Positions 6,635 through 13,412 of a DNA stretch of 64,000 bases are shown here, in pieces. The notes under the pieces were generated by a model. It saw nothing but the letters and a program-made list of their open reading frames with translations, did no database searches and had not been told where the DNA came from. Numbering within the stretch: position 1 is the stretch's first letter; each line of letters opens with the position of its first letter. Source of the stretch: a virus. Lineage: Duplodnaviria; Caudoviricetes. The stretch spans positions 715-64,714 of the IMG/VR virus record IMGVR_UViG_3300005842_000004; one strand, written 5' to 3'. The position numbers and the translations under genes are program-made.

Positions 6635-9466
6635 CTAAGGTATCGGATACGCCTGCTTGGCCGGCCGCCAGATCGTCACCGTCGCCACGTCATCAACGAT
6701 CTCCAAGCCGATGACGACCCAATCACTCAGATTCAACTCCGCTTCCTCGACATCGAATGCTGCCTCGTGCAAGATCGACCTCGACCCTGCCAATATCCAA
6801 AGCGGAATCCCCTTCGTATCGGAGGCATATCGGTGCAGGGCCAAGAGTCGCGCTGCCTCAGTCATCGCATCTCGCCGATTGATTAATGCAGTCTGGCGGA
6901 TCTTGGATATCGCAGTCGGGTATCGTCCGGCCGCACCCGTCGCCGTGGCCTTGATCGAATAGTCTTGCTTGACCGCGGGGCGATCCAACATAGATCCGTA
7001 AAGGTATCGATCCGGATCAGACATGGCCAATGCCCCGGCAATGTTGGCAGGGTCCATCTTGCTGTCATTGTGGGCGTACAGGACGGTCCACTGCCACACT
7101 GCCGGATCATGCGATTCGGGTGTGATCTCGCCGGATTGAACATCACGATTGATTGAGTATGTGGCGTCCGGTGTACCAGTCACACCGACAAATTGCTTAA
7201 TGTAGATTGTCGACCCTGTCTTGTACGGGATGAACCCAAGCCCGCCCAAGATGATCCGCGAGATCTCTAACGCTGTCTCGCCCTGTCCGACATACCACCC
7301 GCAATCGGAAGGGTTGGCATTGAGACATGCCCGCCATGTCATCGAGTCGAGATCAGCGGCGAGATATCCAGCCAGGTAATAGCACTTCCGGGCCAAATCC
7401 GCCGCAGTCGATCGCCCACCCGTCCACGTCACGTTAGTCAGAGTCAATGCTGTCCCGCCCAGCATTGAGCTCGCGGATGAGCCGGTCGCATCGTCACAAT
7501 GCCAGCCATAGGCTAGATTCGCTTCTGACCCCGTCGCCGGCAACATGTGCAGCGCTTGCAAGTCGGATTGACTCAGCGCCCGAGCGAATACGAGCGGCTC
7601 GTCATATCGGCCTTCCGCTTGAGTGCCTGTCGTAGAGTCCGGCCGGCATCCGATCCCGAACGCGGTACGGGTTGTCGAGAATGTCCCCGTAATCGTCACC
7701 ACCGCCGATGACAGAGTGCCATTGACCCAGACAGCCAGCGTCGCCCCGGTCGTGGCGGTGTTCCCGGCTTGGTTCATATTGCGGACCAAGGCGAGAGAGT
7801 AGGTCGTCCCTTCGGATAGATTCGGCCCTGATGATGTGGTGAAGATCGTCCCGGCATCATTGATGCAGAACGCTTCGAGACAGTTTGCGCCGCCTGTTGA
7901 CTTGAGCCGGAGAATGATCGATCCGGCCGACGCTGAGGTCTGCCATCCCATGAGGACATAAGAGGCTCCGGTGTGGGACTTGGACGGGGTGTATTGACAA
8001 GTCAGAGTGCACGATCCGTTGACCGAGTTTATCGTTGCCAGGACGGTCGAAGTCGAGATGATGGACAGGGCGGAATTCCAGAAGTTATTCCCCGTCACTG
8101 TCGCTGAATACGTCCCGGACAATGCGCCGGATGTGATCTGGAATGTGCCAGCGGCGAGGTTGGGTGTCCAGATGGCGCCGAGCGCATTATGTCCAGATTG
8201 GACTTCAGATATCAGCGCTGCGCCACCATAGGACACTTCACCTATCTGATTGACCGGATCGACCCATGACACCGGGACTCTCGATACCGTGCCGAGAACG
8301 TACGGGCGGAAATTCCCTGCGATCGATTGCCAGGCCCAGCTCGCAGTATCCCAGGTTACGGATGCGTCAGCGGTACCGGTTAGAGCTGAGCCGGACTTGC
8401 GATCATGGATGGTTGACCCGACTCCCTCATCGCCCGGAAAATAAGCCAAGAGTCCGGATGCCGAGGGGAGGACAGGTTGACGGGATTCGGCATACATTGC
8501 GGCGACAGTCTTGGCCGAATTCCAGTACGTCCATCGCGATAATTTTCCCTTCAACCCTTTGCCCATCGTCAGAGAGATCGAGTTGGCTGAGGGCGATCCG
8601 GCGATAGACGATGACGATACGACCGACACCCCGTCGACTCCAATCTCTCGTGTACCCGCTGCGGTGTTGACGCTGAATGACAGATAGTGCCATTGCCGTG
8701 CGTGGAGAGGGGAAGCGATCGAGGTTAATGGAGACGGGGTCTGACCTCGAATCGTCATGCCCAACGCCACCCCGGCATCGAACACATATCCAGTCGAGCC
8801 GGCGGAGTCTTTGAAGAATAGGAATTGATTGGCAATGGTGGGATCGTCGAGGTTGACCCAGCCAGCCAAAGAGAAGGACGAGGTCTGGTCTAGATTGTCG
8901 CCGAGGTCGACTGTGCCGGATGACGTGCCGGGGAAGTACAGGCAGGAGGGGGAGTAGGTGACAGGTTGCAAAGGTTGGTCGAGACTATGACTGTCGTCCC
9001 GGACAGAGATGATTGCCTTTGCGTCGCCAACTTCGGGAACACCTATGCCCCGGAGAGAGAAAAGGGGAGAGGTGAGGACATCGGATAGATTGACTCGGGT
9101 GCCAGATGAGAGAATGCCGACAAGATAAATCTGAATCAATCTATTGTCGATCGAATTATGAATCCAAGCATCCCAATGCCCGGCGTATTCTCGGACATCG
9201 TTGATCAGCTCTAATTGTGAGTATGTGCCGAACGCTTCCGATGGATTGAGCGGGTCGATATGTTGGGATATTTGAAGCCCGGTTGCCAGGAGAGGGGGGA
9301 TGTAGGCGGCGACGGGGCCGGAAGGAGGATCGGCCCACCCGCGGCCTTGATTACCCTGGCATATCCATTCGATCGATTCAACGTTGGATGAGGAGAGATA
9401 GGCGATCGAGCAGACGACTTCTATGCGGGCAGAGGGATCGGCGAGGAGGTCGGCGAGGGTTGCCAT
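6635..9466 (-). CDS. Tail tip/receptor-binding protein with two LamG (concanavalin-like) domains
   Basis: FSLAGWVN..WHYLSFS..KGKLSRWTYWN..LLAYFPGDEG and VWVNG..GRYDEPLVFARALS..LAYGWHCDD; last structural gene. Confidence 0.8.
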   Translation of the reverse strand: MATLADLLADPSARIEVVCSIAYLSSSNVESIEWICQGNQGRGWADPPSGPVAAYIPPLLATGLQISQHIDPLNPSEAFGTYSQLELINDVREYAGHWDAWIHNSIDNRLIQIYLVGILSSGTRVNLSDVLTSPLFSLRGIGVPEVGDAKAIISVRDDSHSLDQPLQPVTYSPSCLYFPGTSSGTVDLGDNLDQTSSFSLAGWVNLDDPTIANQFLFFKDSAGSTGYVFDAGVALGMTIRGQTPSPLTSIASPLHARQWHYLSFSVNTAAGTREIGVDGVSVVSSSSIAGSPSANSISLTMGKGLKGKLSRWTYWNSAKTVAAMYAESRQPVLPSASGLLAYFPGDEGVGSTIHDRKSGSALTGTADASVTWDTASWAWQSIAGNFRPYVLGTVSRVPVSWVDPVNQIGEVSYGGAALISEVQSGHNALGAIWTPNLAAGTFQITSGALSGTYSATVTGNNFWNSALSIISTSTVLATINSVNGSCTLTCQYTPSKSHTGASYVLMGWQTSASAGSIILRLKSTGGANCLEAFCINDAGTIFTTSSGPNLSEGTTYSLALVRNMNQAGNTATTGATLAVWVNGTLSSAVVTITGTFSTTRTAFGIGCRPDSTTGTQAEGRYDEPLVFARALSQSDLQALHMLPATGSEANLAYGWHCDDATGSSASSMLGGTALTLTNVTWTGGRSTAADLARKCYYLAGYLAADLDSMTWRACLNANPSDCGWYVGQGETALEISRIILGGLGFIPYKTGSTIYIKQFVGVTGTPDATYSINRDVQSGEITPESHDPAVWQWTVLYAHNDSKMDPANIAGALAMSDPDRYLYGSMLDRPAVKQDYSIKATATGAAGRYPTAISKIRQTALINRRDAMTEAARLLALHRYASDTKGIPLWILAGSRSILHEAAFDVEEAELNLSDWVVIGLEIVDDVATVTIWRPAKQAYPIP

Positions 9467-9473
9467 CAGACGA

Positions 9474-9539
9474 TCAGTCCAGAGCCTGGACAGCGAGCAG
9501 GCGGATTGTTTCGCGGGTGAGCTTCAATTTACGCGACAT
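9474..9539 (-). CDS. 21-aa micro-ORF, lanthipeptide-leader-like peptide MSRKLKLTRETIRLLAVQALD (not in ORF track)
   Basis: GGAGG 5 nt before ATG; fills the gap between two tail genes; shares LxL(S/T)RET(I/L)RxL with the precursor at 11954-12163. Confidence 0.7.
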   Translation of the reverse strand: MSRKLKLTRETIRLLAVQALD

Positions 9540-9540
9540 G

Positions 9541-11049
9541 CTATCCTCCGCCTGATCTCTGGCCATTGTGATCGATCCAATGCAACACCATGTCCCACCT
9601 GTCTCGGGTGTGGTTCATCCCGTCAGCGAGTACGTCCGGATCGATCCCGGTAAATCGGCCTATATGTGTCTCCGCTTTCGACCCGACGACCATCCAGCGG
9701 GGACGGGTTTGCTCATCCGAATACCCCTCGGTCATGTTCGGATCGGGGATGAGCAGAGTAGGGACGCGCATGATCCCGAGTGTGCGGATGAGACGTTCGA
9801 TCGCCTGGACGGTCAATCGGGATATGCCGATGATGGTCATGTCGGCCTCGGTCCATTCCAGGGGGGATCGTCCACCGCGGAACGAGCCGGCACGGGTACG
9901 GGCAGGGGTGGAATCGGAGGCGGAGGAAAGATTCCAGCCGGAGGGGGAGGCGAGAGGGGTGATGATGGTATCGGCGGCGAGGAAACGACCGGCGTGGAAA
10001 CGGCCATCAGGATCGCCAGGATTGACAATCGACGAGTAAATGTGCGCGTTCAGCACACCGCCAATCACGCGCGTGAACGGAGTTGTCAGGTAACTATTGA
10101 ATGGTCCCGGCTCGACATACACATATGTTGTGGTTGAGATCGTAATGTCGGGTCGCAGCGTAAAGCTATCCATATCGACGTTTGGAAAATCCAGCAGTCC
10201 GGAATCATAACTATATCCCGAGTGATCGAGCACCAGCTCGACGCCGATGAAGTCACAAGCAGTCGAAGTACTCAGATGCAGCTCCATAGCTGCTGTTTGA
10301 CTCGCAAGAGCAGAGGCCAAGAAAGAATAGGTGAACACGAACCCGCCGCTCGAATTGCCCACTTCGACGTGCTCTAGATCCACGTACGATACAAGTGATA
10401 TTACCGAAGATCCCGACTGCCATATCGACGCCGTGACGCTTGGGATCAAAAGCGGGTTGTTCACATCTCGCAGATGGAAGCGGACAACGCAAGTGCCAGC
10501 TAGCGGCCGTTCGGTCGCGTAGTAATTCGCCCATGTGCCTACAATCGACGTCGCAATTGCTGGATTGGTCGGCGTCAATTTGGTCTCAGCATAGCCAACA
10601 GGCGCCGGATCATCAGGAGGATCAAGAGGATGCCCGGTGAAGTTTGCGTCAGCACCGGTGAGATTTACTTTCGAATTGAGCGTCATCGGCGGGCGGACTC
10701 GGCTGGCGATTGGGTACGTGTCGACGATGAGTCGGAACAAGTTATTGCCGTAGGTGACACCCGGCAGCACTGCGCTCGGTGTTCTTCTGTTGATTCCGAT
10801 CAAAGACACTACACCGAGATTTCTATTGACAATCACATTGTCTGATTGCGCTTGTACCCAACTGCAAGAGCTTCTATGGTTGATGGCGGACCAGTAATCG
10901 CCGAGTATGTCACCCGTCAATTTGCTCGTATCGAATCCTGGCATGGCAGACCCGGTTGTGATTGTCCACCTATCTGACGGATACAGAACTGCGCCTGTAG
11001 TCGACAAATCACGGACAGCGAAGCGGAGACCAGCAACCGGGTCAGTCAT
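9541..11049 (-). CDS. Minor/distal tail protein (putative)
   Basis: 502 aa beta-rich ORF adjacent to the LamG tail gene; positional inference. Confidence 0.65.
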   Translation of the reverse strand: MTDPVAGLRFAVRDLSTTGAVLYPSDRWTITTGSAMPGFDTSKLTGDILGDYWSAINHRSSCSWVQAQSDNVIVNRNLGVVSLIGINRRTPSAVLPGVTYGNNLFRLIVDTYPIASRVRPPMTLNSKVNLTGADANFTGHPLDPPDDPAPVGYAETKLTPTNPAIATSIVGTWANYYATERPLAGTCVVRFHLRDVNNPLLIPSVTASIWQSGSSVISLVSYVDLEHVEVGNSSGGFVFTYSFLASALASQTAAMELHLSTSTACDFIGVELVLDHSGYSYDSGLLDFPNVDMDSFTLRPDITISTTTYVYVEPGPFNSYLTTPFTRVIGGVLNAHIYSSIVNPGDPDGRFHAGRFLAADTIITPLASPSGWNLSSASDSTPARTRAGSFRGGRSPLEWTEADMTIIGISRLTVQAIERLIRTLGIMRVPTLLIPDPNMTEGYSDEQTRPRWMVVGSKAETHIGRFTGIDPDVLADGMNHTRDRWDMVLHWIDHNGQRSGGG

Positions 11050-11062
11050 AGCCTTCAGTGTA

Positions 11063-11743
11063 TCAGGGTGCGCCGCAAAGTTTCACGCCGTTCGGATCGA
11101 CACCGCATCCGATCGCGTCCCCGTGATCGTGAAGCCGGCGAAAGCACTTGCCGACTGTTCGCACGGGATCTCCGGTCATGCTGGTCACAACGCCGGCCGG
11201 GAGACAGGAAGCAGCGCACGGCGGAAGGAACGCCACGTACTCATCATATTGCGGACAGTCCGTCGTGTACCCGACGATATCGACAACGTAATCCGCCGCT
11301 GCTGTCGAATAGAGCGACACATCTGCCGGGAAGTTGAAGTCAGCCAGTGTGATCGGCGCCGTGACCACATTGCCGTTCTCGTTCGCAGTCATGAGCAGAG
11401 TGATCGCGAGAGGCTGAGACGGCGCATTCCACGGCCACAGGCGGGCGTATCCGGCAGCGCTAGGGTTGACCACGGACAGGCCGACGAGGACACCGGTTGC
11501 GTACTTTGGCACACCGCAACCGGCCTCGCCGCCCTGGTTGGTTCCGGCGTCTTCTCGCACACGGAAACTCATCGTGCTCCCCGCCGTCATCCGCGCATTG
11601 ATCAGCCGGGTATCGAGCACTCGGCACGGACGCGGAAGGAGGATGACGTCATCTGCACTCGCCCGATCCACCCCAGCGAGCGCCATGACTCCGAATCCGA
11701 GAACCACCACCAACTTCATCTTCATCCTCATCTTGAGATTCAT
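11063..11743 (-). CDS. Secreted protein with PCRxxDTR beta-sandwich module
   Basis: Signal peptide KLVVVLGFGVMALAGVDRASA; PCRVLDTR..CGVP..ATGVLVGLSVVNP..GYARLWP..VVDIVGY; Cys-rich C-terminus. Confidence 0.8.
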   Translation of the reverse strand: MNLKMRMKMKLVVVLGFGVMALAGVDRASADDVILLPRPCRVLDTRLINARMTAGSTMSFRVREDAGTNQGGEAGCGVPKYATGVLVGLSVVNPSAAGYARLWPWNAPSQPLAITLLMTANENGNVVTAPITLADFNFPADVSLYSTAAADYVVDIVGYTTDCPQYDEYVAFLPPCAASCLPAGVVTSMTGDPVRTVGKCFRRLHDHGDAIGCGVDPNGVKLCGAP

Positions 11744-11953: not shown

Positions 11954-12163
11954 TCAGATGCAACCAGTTCTTGCGGCAGAATCGACATGCCCACAAACAG
12001 TGAAGACGCCAGTAGGACAATTGCAATTGGTGTTGTTGCACGTCTCGGTACACCAATCAGTCGTCGTACAGCCGTCTTGATTGCTCTCGCCTCCAACGAC
12101 TCGGCGTAGAGAGGATTCGGTGAGATTTCTCAGCGTCTCACGACTAAGAGTCAGCCGCCGCAT
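11954..12163 (-). CDS. Lanthipeptide/RiPP-type precursor peptide (69 aa)
   Basis: SD AGGAGGTG before ATG 12163; leader MRRLTLSRETLRNL...VVGG then core with 7 Cys, 9 Thr, 2 Ser. Confidence 0.85.
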   Translation of the reverse strand: MRRLTLSRETLRNLTESSLRRVVGGESNQDGCTTTDWCTETCNNTNCNCPTGVFTVCGHVDSAARTGCI

Positions 12164-12222
12164 TTCGCCACCTCCTGGCATTTCCCTGAGACCGGCCGTC
12201 TATTCGTCCGGTCGGCGATCAA

Positions 12223-12273
12223 ACAATACCGCGTATCCTCGGCGGTTGTCAACCGGGCGAATAGAGCGTAAGT
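12223..12273 (-). promoter_or_regulatory. Promoter/operator of the precursor gene; copy 1 of a 33-bp element
   Basis: TTGACA-18-TATTGT; CGGTTGTCAACCG at 12243-12255; 12241-12273 matches 45957-45989 at 31/33. Confidence 0.75.
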
Positions 12274-12282
12274 GTCCAGGCC

Positions 12283-12308
12283 AAAAAGAGCCCCCGTCTC
12301 CGGGAGCT
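12283..12308 (-). terminator. Intrinsic terminator after endolysin
   Basis: AGCTCCCG-GAGA-CGGGGGCT stem followed by CTTTTT. Confidence 0.75.
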
Positions 12309-12403: not shown

Positions 12404-12865
12404 TCAGACAGGGACAGAGGGGAATGCATCCTGGACAAACAGTGCCATCTCCGCCGCACGTCGAGACATGAGACCTCTCAGCGGCTTATGATTCTGATTG
12501 ATCCACAAGCCGAACCCGCGCCACGCCGCAATGTAGTCTTTCGACCGCAGTGCTGATCCGATCGTCCCTATCCTGTTGAGCGTGTCCGGCCCGACATTGA
12601 ACACCAGCGACACGAGCGCATCAAACATCGACTGAGATAGAGGAGTGCCGAGGGATATGATTTCGTTGACGGTCTGCTCAGCGTCGATCAGATCCTGTTG
12701 CAGCCAGATTAGGGCTTGGGTCCGGGTGCACGTATCCCCCATCTTGACGCCGCGGGTATGGCCGAATGCGATCGTGGGCACATCATCCGCGGTTGGCTTA
12801 TACGCATGATCAGCGTACGTCTCGAATGACTTGATCAGATCGATTCCGCGTGTTCCGGTTTTCAT
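12404..12865 (-). CDS. Endolysin, GH24 phage lysozyme
   Basis: GIDLIKSFE..AY..TIAFGHT..QSMFDALVSLVFNVG..GLMSRRAAE; real start ATG 12865 overlapping holin stop. Confidence 0.93.
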   Translation of the reverse strand: MKTGTRGIDLIKSFETYADHAYKPTADDVPTIAFGHTRGVKMGDTCTRTQALIWLQQDLIDAEQTVNEIISLGTPLSQSMFDALVSLVFNVGPDTLNRIGTIGSALRSKDYIAAWRGFGLWINQNHKPLRGLMSRRAAEMALFVQDAFPSVPV

Positions 12866-13293
12866 CCTTTCCTCGCAATCAGCTCTTCCAACAGTGCCAA
12901 CCGATGCGCCGACTCCGCCCGATCCACCCGCGACAACTCCTTGACCGCAGCGACACTCTCCTCCAATACCTGCGCTTTGATCCGGAGTACACTCGCTGCC
13001 TCGGCATTTACCCGTGCCGCCTCCGCGCTGATCCTCGCCGACTCCTGCAACCCATTGACGATGTCGCGGAGGGTTGACCCGGAATCTGATTTGAACTGTG
13101 CGGCAATCTCCTTGACCACATCGAACAATTCCGGATTGTCTTTGAACCGATCGGTTATCGTGATGAGCAGAGGGATGACATCGTGAGCGTAGAGGATGAG
13201 ACGATCGAGCGGGCGGATGAGTTTGGAATAGATCACGGAGCAAGCGCCGAGGAGAGCACCCGCCCCAATGATCCACTGGAACCAAGTCGGCAC
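12862..13293 (-). CDS. Putative holin-like membrane protein
   Basis: N-terminal TM WIIGAGALLGACSVIY then coiled coil; coupled to endolysin. Confidence 0.6.
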   Translation of the reverse strand: MPTWFQWIIGAGALLGACSVIYSKLIRPLDRLILYAHDVIPLLITITDRFKDNPELFDVVKEIAAQFKSDSGSTLRDIVNGLQESARISAEAARVNAEAASVLRIKAQVLEESVAAVKELSRVDRAESAHRLALLEELIARKG

Positions 13294-13295
13294 GG

Positions 13296-13412
13296 TTAGT
13301 GATCACCCGACCCGGCCGGTGGCAAGACTTGTGCGGCCGGATCAGAGGTCTGAGGAGGAGTGAAGGTGACACTGGCCGGCGATGGTGGCATGATCGGAGC
13401 GACGAGAGACAT
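13296..13412 (-). CDS. Possible 38-aa Pro-rich protein (not in ORF track)
   Basis: MSLVAPIMPPSPASVTFTPPQTSDPAAQVLPPAGSGDH; GAGGGG upstream; fills the gap exactly. Confidence 0.4.
   Translation of the reverse strand: MSLVAPIMPPSPASVTFTPPQTSDPAAQVLPPAGSGDH

What the first reader, a model, noticed from the sequence alone, without database searches (positions are those of the whole stretch)
9474..9539. Hidden leader-only RiPP peptide between two tail genes: possible decoy or trans-acting leader
Seen: an unannotated ORF with GGAGG SD encodes MSRKLKLTRETIRLLAVQALD, aligning with the leader of the precursor 2.4 kb upstream (MRRLTLSRETLRNL; shared (K/R)LxL(S/T)RET(I/L)RxL) but ending before any GG site or Cys/Thr core. 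Known: lanthipeptide synthetases recognise the leader, free leaders can bind and modulate them in trans, and lanthipeptide clusters have been reported to act in anti-phage defence. Inference: the phage expresses a leader mimic late in infection to jam or redirect host RiPP enzymes; with the full precursor this would be an undescribed two-peptide phage system. Alternative: a decayed precursor copy or a translational-coupling spacer.
Basis: partly seen in the sequence, partly recalled or inferred. Interest (0 to 1): 0.88.

Follow-up and report, generated by a model that had tools for sequence, protein, structure and literature searches.

The report
Leader-only RiPP mini-ORF in phage
A 21-codon reading frame wedged between two structural genes of a soil phage really does copy the front half of a bacterial peptide-antibiotic leader, but it is absent from the one related phage found and is more likely a truncated leftover than a proven decoy.

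Summary
The ORF is real. It lies on the minus strand, ATG 9539 to TGA 9474, and encodes 21 aa. A GGAGGA Shine-Dalgarno sits in the last codons of the upstream 502-aa gene. The ORF's stop is 7 nt before the 943-aa gene.

The leader likeness exceeds chance. A profile of 59 leaders, none from this phage, scores the ORF 19.2 bits (E 8e-5). That ranks second of 2,313 six-frame ORFs, behind the phage's own 69-aa precursor; the next ORF scores 6.2 bits.

The leader family is acidobacterial: 21 of 22 genome loci. It sometimes lies beside LanC-domain genes. The complete temperate phage has no LanC, LanB N-terminal or C39 match.

The ORF keeps KLxLxRETIRxL and ends before the GG site, with no trace of a core.

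Against a conserved function:
- The only relative found has an unrelated 80-aa ORF in this slot.
- 58 of the 59 other leaders continue to a GG-type site; those inspected then run into a core.
- The one exception is a nonsense-interrupted precursor.

Best reading (0.45): a truncated leader cassette, probably translated, at most coupling translation of the 943-aa gene. A working leader mimic remains possible (about 0.28).

The parts
9474..9539 (-). 21-codon leader-only ORF (MSRKLKLTRETIRLLAVQALD plus TGA)
   Evidence: Searches give the sequence. Leader-profile hits: E 6e-4 and E 8.1e-5. Shuffle controls.
9544..9549 (-). Shine-Dalgarno GGAGGA inside the last Gly codons of the 502-aa gene, 4 nt before the ATG
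   Evidence: Energy -9.5 kcal/mol; 7 of 73 ORFs are as strong. The same SD-ATG arrangement is present in the relative L001.
9541..11049 (-). Upstream 502-aa structural-region gene ending in SGGG-TAG
   Evidence: No Pfam or PHROG hit. 58% identical homologue in L001. Only viral look-alike clusters, scores below 0.9.
6635..9466 (-). Downstream 943-aa gene with a Laminin_G_3 (LamG) domain and a weak SD of its own; it starts 7 nt after the mini-ORF stop
   Evidence: 65% identical homologue in L001.
11954..12163 (-). 69-aa RiPP-type precursor: leader MRRLTLSRETLRNLTESSLRRVVGG followed by a Cys/Thr-rich core
   Evidence: NF038153 at 17-18 bits, below the cut-off of 22. 14 precursor homologues among 1.84 billion representatives. 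Profile score 47.8-49.8 bits. SD -11.6 at this start.
12223..12308 (-). Terminator-like hairpin (12308-12289) and sigma-70-like promoter (12252-12223, 10 of 12 matches) just upstream of the precursor
   Evidence: These are consensus scans only; the counts are not above the shuffle expectation.

Best explanation
The mini-ORF is a truncated copy of a RiPP precursor leader. The leader belongs to a family that is common in Acidobacteriota and linked to lanthipeptide enzymes. The copy sits in a variable cassette slot between two conserved structural genes of a complete temperate siphovirus-like phage.

Only the N-terminal recognition-type motif (M, basic residues, KLxLxRETIRxL, and on to the next conserved Leu) survives. 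The GG cleavage site and the core are gone.

It is probably translated, because it inherits the conserved SD-ATG that follows the 502-aa gene. Its likeliest present role is passive. Ribosomes would terminate 7 nt before the SD-poor 943-aa gene and re-initiate there (translational coupling). The peptide itself would have no selected activity.

Shown: the anatomy, the leader homology, the lack of a core, and the lack of conservation in the relative. Inferred: translation, coupling, and origin by truncating recombination.
For: 1. Leader homology is significant and was tested independently: with controls.
2. No GG site or core follows in any frame. The next gene starts 7 nt after the stop, and its N-terminus is conserved in the relative.
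3. The slot is variable. In the relative (L001, flanking genes 58% and 65% identical), homology runs up to the SD-ATG and resumes at the ATG of the next gene. The interior is an unrelated 80-aa ORFan.
4. Truncated leaders do arise by decay. One of the 44 distinct leaders collected from bacterial and viral loci (L015 7424-7513) is cut by an in-frame TAG with its core still readable behind it.
5. The 943-aa gene has a weak SD (-3.0), while the mini-ORF has one of the strongest (-9.5).
6. The codons differ from the phage's own precursor at synonymous sites throughout (for example CGC GAA ACA against CGT GAG ACG). So this is not a recent internal duplication; a separate capture is plausible.
Against: - All seven columns invariant in alignment A6 (L, L, R, E, T, R, L) are intact, and the Met plus basic N-terminus is leader-like. 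A neutrally decaying relic should erode, so this fits either a recent capture or selection.
- The ORF fills the gap neatly, with no leftover core DNA.
- Leader-bearing ORFs recur in phages: the relative G001, L026 (two) and L027. Interplay with host RiPP machinery may therefore be selected in these phages.
- Coupling is inferred only. In the relative, the 974-aa gene starts 25 nt after its upstream ORF.
Confidence: 0.45

Rival explanations
1. Functional leader-only peptide. It would be made with the late structural genes and bind the leader-recognition site of a host lanthipeptide synthetase. There it would act as a competitive decoy that blocks host RiPP production (possibly an anti-phage one), or as a trans-activator that changes what the enzyme modifies.
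For: - The conserved leader motif is fully retained, with a strong SD and ATG and a tidy ORF.
- The phage lacks LanC, LanB-N and C39, so it depends on host enzymes.
- Genomes with this leader family carry 5-16 LanC-domain matches each, and family leaders lie in 4 of 13 LanC neighbourhoods fetched.
- Three other viral records carry leaders of this family.
- Leaders supplied in trans act on LanM enzymes in vitro (PMC7296275, passages).
- Anti-phage lanthipeptides exist (10.1101/2024.06.26.600839, abstract and passages).
Against: - Absent from the only relative found.
- No other leader-only ORF appeared among the 59 leaders, apart from one nonsense pseudogene.
- It lacks the GG-proximal half of the leader, and it is not known which half the enzyme reads.
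- My searches found no paper on a natural stand-alone leader.
- The host, the enzyme, translation and binding are all untested.
- In 8 acidobacterial precursor loci whose large flanking ORFs were scanned, no lanthipeptide enzyme was adjacent, so the cognate enzyme is not known.
Confidence: 0.28
2. Chance resemblance. A short ORF in a 73-nt spacer happens to look like the leader.
For: - Only about 13-16 residues align.
- 2 of 200 and 6 of 200 shuffles reach the pairwise score for the 14-mer and 20-mer.
- NF038153 does not report the ORF.
Against: - The genome-wide profile E-values are 6e-4 and 8.1e-5, with a gap of 11-13 bits to the next ORF.
- The motif starts at the ORF's own Met, as in real leaders, on the coding strand, behind a strong SD.
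- The same genome holds a full precursor of the family.
Confidence: 0.08
3. A small protein with a virion-related role unrelated to RiPPs (for example an assembly factor), with the leader likeness incidental to an amphipathic basic helix.
For: Its position inside the structural gene string, and the relative's different small ORF translated from the same SD-ATG.
Against: - The match is to specific conserved residues of the leader family, not to composition alone.
- The relative's 80-aa ORF is unrelated and is an ORFan.
- Neither neighbouring gene nor the relative's 80-aa ORF hits any PHROG. The 21-aa peptide itself was not scanned against PHROGs.
Confidence: 0.05

Closest known systems
Acidobacterial GG-leader RiPP precursor family (near NCBIfam NF038153 lant_leader_L1a)
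   Same: It shares the N-terminal leader motif (Met, basic residues, KLxLxRETLRxL and the following conserved Leu). Profile hit E 8.1e-5.
   Different: It has no GG/GA cleavage site and no Cys/Thr core. NF038153 gives no hit. It is phage-borne and lies inside a structural operon.
Prochlorosin/ProcM-type arrangement: many precursors with one conserved leader, encoded far from a promiscuous class II synthetase (recalled; listing of PMC10783134 seen)
   Same: The bacterial relatives have tandem or scattered precursors with a conserved leader and hypervariable cores. They lie about 100-200 kb from the nearest LanC-domain gene in two complete genomes.
   Different: The leader family is different (not Nif11). 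The enzyme link rests only on 4 of 13 neighbourhoods. The mini-ORF has no core to modify.
Leader peptides supplied in trans to LanM/LanB enzymes (laboratory experiments; PMC7296275, passages read)
   Same: A free leader without a core, which is what the mini-ORF would encode.
   Different: Those are laboratory constructs using complete leaders. Here only the N-terminal part is kept, and no natural example turned up in my searches.
Phage morons and phage-carried biosynthetic genes (listing of bioRxiv 10.1101/2020.10.01.322628 seen)
   Same: Host-type accessory sequence inserted at gene boundaries of a temperate phage. The full 69-aa precursor looks like a moron with its own promoter-like site.
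   Different: The mini-ORF has no promoter of its own and carries only a gene fragment.
Translationally coupled small ORFs in bacterial and phage operons (general knowledge, recalled)
   Same: The stop lies 7 nt before an SD-poor downstream start, and the small ORF itself has a strong SD.
   Different: Coupling was not tested. The ORF's sequence is not arbitrary: it matches a leader family.

Membership tests
GG-leader RiPP precursor family (acidobacterial; near NF038153) | N-terminal leader motif K-L-x-L-x-R-E-T-L-R-x-L directly after Met and basic residues | tested here: met
   Independent leader profiles: 16.5 bits, E 6e-4; 19.2 bits, E 8.1e-5. All 7 invariant columns of A6 are present.
GG-leader RiPP precursor family (acidobacterial; near NF038153) | Double-glycine type cleavage motif (xVxGG / GA / AG) at the leader's end | tested here: not met
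   The ORF stops after ...AVQALD, about 5-6 residues before the GG position. Reading on past the TGA gives no GG (sequence).
GG-leader RiPP precursor family (acidobacterial; near NF038153) | Cys/Ser/Thr-rich core peptide after the leader | tested here: not met
   There is no core. The 943-aa gene starts 7 nt after the stop.
GG-leader RiPP precursor family (acidobacterial; near NF038153) | Score over the curated cut-off of NF038153 (22 bits) | tested here: not met
   No hit for the mini-ORF at E up to 10. The phage's full precursor also stays below the cut-off (17-18 bits).
Lanthipeptide system (LanA with LanB/LanC or LanM) | Modifying enzyme encoded with the peptide | tested here: not met
   No LANC_like, Lant_dehydr_N or Peptidase_C39 match in the complete phage genome. 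None among the 20 large ORFs scanned with Pfam.
Lanthipeptide system (LanA with LanB/LanC or LanM) | The leader family is used by lanthipeptide synthetases in its bacterial hosts | tested here: inconclusive
   Family leaders lie in 4 of 13 LanC-domain neighbourhoods fetched. In L040 one starts about 100 nt after a LanC-like ORF on the same strand. No such enzyme was found next to the precursors in the 8 loci examined.
Natural leader mimic or decoy | The peptide is made and binds the leader-recognition site of a RiPP enzyme | not testable with these tools
   The host and enzyme are unknown. The peptide is shorter than the 30-residue minimum for complex prediction. No RNA run holds the sequence.
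Translational-coupling small ORF | Stop within a few bases of a downstream start that lacks its own SD | tested here: met
   A 7-nt gap; the downstream SD is -3.0 against -9.5 for the mini-ORF. Function was not tested.

The most novel reading that the evidence does not exclude
The phage encodes a natural stand-alone RiPP leader. It would be made late in infection and dock on the leader-binding site of the host's promiscuous lanthipeptide synthetase. There it would either silence host (possibly anti-phage) lanthipeptide production or re-programme the enzyme. The separately promoted 69-aa precursor would exploit the same enzyme during lysogeny. This would be a first natural leader-in-trans or leader-decoy, and a new kind of phage counter-measure aimed at RiPP biosynthesis.
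Probability: 0.25. Interest if true: 0.88.

Novelty: new variant of a known kind. Interest (0 to 1): 0.55.

Why it matters
Free leader peptides are known to switch lanthipeptide synthetases on in the test tube. My literature searches found no natural gene for a leader without a core. If this 21-mer is made and binds a host enzyme, it would show that phages interfere with RiPP biosynthesis at the recognition step. It would also give a simple peptide tool for acidobacterial lanthipeptide enzymes.

Even as a relic, it matters in context. RiPP leaders of this acidobacterial family occur on four viral records: this phage, its relative, and two unrelated contigs. That documents traffic of RiPP precursor genes between uncultured soil Acidobacteriota and their phages. 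It also points to the likely host phylum of this phage.

Tried and rejected
Relatives of the phage
- Scans with the 502-aa and 943-aa proteins or their alignments gave only one relative record (L001/L002 = G001).
  - Viral contigs.
  - Metagenome contigs: none.
  - Genome contigs: none.
  - 401 Acidobacteriota genomes: none.
- The phages collection gave no DNA match.
- A conservation or dN/dS test was therefore impossible.

Protein searches
- The word-index search for the precursor and for the relative's 80-aa ORF returned only the queries themselves.

RNA structure and regulatory signals
- The junction has no unusual RNA structure (z 0.10).
- No promoter- or terminator-like site lies next to it.

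Expression and population variants
- No RNA holder is listed for the stretch. The single DNA run is probably the source sample.
- Laying its contigs showed only the source contig and two short chance pieces, with no variants.

Recent duplication from the phage's own precursor
- Rejected, because synonymous sites differ throughout.

Read-through or frameshift into a core, or fusion to a neighbour
- Rejected. The three ORFs are in three different frames, and the sequence after the TGA has no GG or Cys-rich stretch.

Neighbours of bacterial precursors
- In 8 loci the large flanking ORFs that matched a Pfam family were kinase-TPR, histidine kinase, RND/HlyD/MMPL efflux, peptidase, sulfatase, helicase and housekeeping genes. 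Seven ORFs matched nothing. No maturase was found.

Complex prediction
- Not attempted.

- Searches found no natural leader-only peptide.
- PMC11118758 was checked by passages and does not report virus-encoded leaders in what I read.
- Supplementary files were not opened. Those of the lanthiphage preprint could list phage escape genes that bear on the decoy idea.

Full report
**What is there**

The window is nearly all of a 64,714-bp virus record with direct terminal repeats, rated complete. Every sizeable gene lies on the minus strand. Pfam identifies the following:
- DNA polymerase A, helicases, large terminase, portal, S49 protease and major capsid.
- A collagen-repeat protein and a phage lysozyme.
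- A UvrD helicase and an integrase.

A 2010-aa tape-measure-sized ORF has no Pfam hit. This is a temperate, siphovirus-like phage.

The finding lies downstream of the 2010-aa ORF and the lysozyme. It sits between a 502-aa gene (9541-11049) and a 943-aa gene with a LamG domain (6635-9466). Neither gene hits any PHROG, and both resemble only viral hypothetical-protein clusters. 'Tail genes' is therefore a reasonable reading by position, not a demonstrated one.

**The ORF**

On the minus strand the sequence reads ...TCA GGC GGA GGA TAG C ATG TCG CGT AAA ... CTG GAC TGA TCGTCTG ATG GCA.... Three points follow.
- The last Gly codons of the 502-aa gene form a GGAGGA Shine-Dalgarno.
- The ATG of the 21-codon ORF comes one base after that gene's TAG.
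- The TGA of the mini-ORF lies 7 nt before the ATG of the 943-aa gene.

The three ORFs use three different frames. With a generic anti-SD, the mini-ORF's site scores -9.5 kcal/mol. Only 7 of 73 first-start ORFs are as strong, and the median is -4.8. The 943-aa gene scores -3.0. The junction RNA is not unusually structured (z 0.10). No promoter- or terminator-like site lies beside it.

**Is the leader likeness real?**

The 69-aa ORF at 11954-12163 has a leader, MRRLTLSRETLRNLTESSLRRVVGG, followed by a Cys/Thr-rich core. A full HMMER search of 1.84 billion representatives found 16 proteins at E up to 0.001. Of these:
- 14 are short precursors with the same leader and hypervariable Cys/Thr cores.
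- One is the query itself.
- One is an unrelated repeat protein, which I dropped.

I built a leader-only profile from those 14 proteins (15 leaders, none from this phage). I ran it without filters against all 2,313 stop-to-stop ORFs of at least 12 aa in the six frames of the phage.

I then repeated the test with 59 leaders, adding those from bacterial and viral loci.

| Profile | Precursor | Mini-ORF | Next ORF |
|---|---|---|---|
| 15 leaders | 49.8 bits | 16.5 bits (E 6e-4) | 5.4 bits (E 1.8) |
| 59 leaders | 47.8 bits | 19.2 bits (E 8.1e-5) | 6.2 bits (E 0.93) |

A plain BLOSUM62 scan agrees: the mini-ORF is the best non-self match of the leader (37 against 30). It is reached in 2 of 200, 0 of 200 and 6 of 200 dinucleotide shuffles for the 14-, 13- and 20-residue queries.

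The aligned part is RKLKLTRETIRLL(AVQ). All seven columns that are invariant in alignment A6 are present, and the Met plus basic start matches real leaders. NF038153 (lant_leader_L1a) does not detect the mini-ORF. It scores even the full precursor below its cut-off: 17-18 bits against 22.

**What is missing**

The ORF ends one residue after the leader's second conserved Leu, about five to six residues before the GG position. No GG and no Cys-rich stretch follows in any frame, because the conserved N-terminus of the 943-aa protein begins almost at once. It is a leader fragment, not a precursor.

At the DNA level it differs from the phage's own leader at synonymous sites throughout. It is therefore not a recent internal duplication.

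**Where the leader family lives**

A pattern scan of one genome per species returned 22 loci. Twenty-one are Acidobacteriota or Thermoanaerobaculia MAGs and one is a Phycisphaerales MAG. The host is therefore probably an acidobacterium, which is an inference.

Many of these loci carry two to four tandem precursors. The large ORFs flanking eight of these loci that matched a Pfam family encode kinase-TPR, efflux, sensor, peptidase or housekeeping proteins; seven matched nothing. None is a RiPP maturase.

Five of these genomes each hold 5-16 LANC_like matches and 2-3 C39-peptidase matches. Many of the LANC_like matches lie in open frames of about 1,070-1,190 aa, which is LanM size.

I fetched 13 LanC-domain neighbourhoods. 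Four contain leaders of the family (L030, L034 with two, L038, L040). In L040 a precursor starts about 100 nt after a LanC-like ORF on the same strand. Neither of the 2 C39 neighbourhoods fetched contains one.

A link to lanthipeptide enzymes is therefore plausible but not proven. The arrangement resembles the scattered-precursor, promiscuous-synthetase layout known from prochlorosins (recalled).

The phage itself has no LANC_like, Lant_dehydr_N or Peptidase_C39 match.

**Comparative evidence**

Only one relative of the phage could be found: IMG/VR record G001 (L001/L002, 38.9 kb, rated 60% complete). Its homologues of the 502-aa and 943-aa proteins are 58% and 65% identical.

DNA homology runs up to the SD and the ATG that follows the 502-aa gene, and resumes at the ATG of the next gene. 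In between, G001 has an unrelated 80-aa ORF with no relatives in 5.8 billion proteins. The position is therefore a cassette slot translated from a conserved SD-ATG, and the leader-like ORF is not conserved in it.

G001 also lacks the 69-aa precursor at the corresponding place. It does carry its own leader-bearing 76-aa ORF elsewhere (MKLTLHRETIRNLTG..., profile E 5.8e-5), just upstream of what looks like a small-terminase gene.

Two further, unrelated viral contigs encode full precursors of the family:
- L026 has two in tandem. The first has the leader KKLTLQRETIRLL, the closest match to the mini-ORF.
- L027 has one.

All of these continue to a GG-type site or into a longer Cys-bearing C-terminal part. 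Among the 44 distinct leaders gathered from loci, one is truncated: L015 7424-7513. It is cut by an in-frame TAG, with the GG site and core still readable behind it. That is a pseudogene or an assembly error. Leader-only ORFs therefore do arise by decay.

**How it most likely works**

I rank the readings as follows.

1. Truncated leader cassette (0.45). The ORF was captured or cut down by recombination at a gene boundary. It is probably translated because of the inherited SD-ATG. At most it delivers terminating ribosomes to the SD-poor 943-aa gene 7 nt downstream.
2. Working leader-only peptide (0.28). The peptide engages a host lanthipeptide synthetase as a decoy or trans-activator.
   - For: the intact motif, the tidy gene-like layout, the recurring presence of this leader family on phages, the phage's dependence on host enzymes, and laboratory evidence that leaders act in trans on LanM and LanB enzymes (PMC7296275, passages).
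   - Also relevant: anti-phage lanthipeptides are reported (10.1101/2024.06.26.600839, abstract and passages).
   - Against: the lack of conservation, the missing GG-proximal half, and no natural precedent in my searches.
3. Chance (0.08).
4. An unrelated small virion factor (0.05).

The full precursor follows a terminator-like hairpin and has a promoter-like site with 10 of 12 matches, as a moron expressed on its own would. The mini-ORF is buried in the late operon. Those scans are consensus matches whose counts do not exceed the shuffles.

**Novelty and verdict**

The object is a new variant of a known kind: a phage-borne, core-less copy of a known type of RiPP leader.

Its sequence identity is solid. 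Its function is open and cannot be settled with the data available, because there is one relative, no RNA data, no population variants and no known host. The decisive work is binding and co-expression assays with acidobacterial lanthipeptide enzymes, a coupling reporter, and more relatives.

Noticed in passing
window 11954-12308 (minus strand): The 69-aa precursor looks like a moron. A terminator-like hairpin (12308-12289) and a TTGACA-18-TATTGT promoter-like site (12252-12223) precede it. Its best start is the MRRL ATG at 12163 (SD -11.6), not the MPGG ATG at 12181.
   Followed up: partly
L025 1492-1722 (= G001:C1:6291-6521): The related phage carries its own 76-aa ORF with the same leader motif (MKLTLHRETIRNLTG...). 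It has no clear GG site and only three Cys, and it lies just upstream of a small-terminase-like ORF, in a different place from the window's precursor.
   Followed up: partly
L026 2783-3198; L027 2986-3153: Two unrelated IMG/VR contigs (118.7 kb and 58.4 kb) encode full precursors of the same acidobacterial leader family. L026 has two in tandem. Phage carriage of this RiPP family appears to be recurrent.
   Followed up: partly
L015 7424-7700: A bacterial precursor of the family is interrupted by an in-frame TAG inside the leader, with the GG site and the Cys-rich core intact behind it. This is a pseudogene, an assembly error or read-through.
   Followed up: partly
G002-G006 (genomes of L008, L011, L006, L012, L014): These acidobacterial MAGs each hold 5-16 LanC-domain matches, many in LanM-sized open frames, plus 2-3 C39 peptidase matches. 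In the two complete chromosomes the precursor loci first found lie about 100-200 kb from the nearest of them.
   Followed up: partly
window 12404-13372 (minus strand): The 322-aa ORF is probably two genes. The lysozyme domain covers only residues 181-308. A 143-aa ORF in another frame (12862-13293, weak PHROG hit of unknown function) occupies the upstream part.
   Followed up: no
window 11063-11743; L001 90-524, 683-1162 and 1297-2169: Signal-peptide-like, partly Cys-rich secreted proteins sit between the lysis genes and the structural genes in both phages. The window's 226-aa protein and L001's 290-aa protein look homologous from their translations. None has a family hit.
   Followed up: no
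P0002 (168 aa): A metagenomic protein contains two complete copies of the leader, each followed by a short core, as if two precursors were fused in tandem.
   Followed up: no
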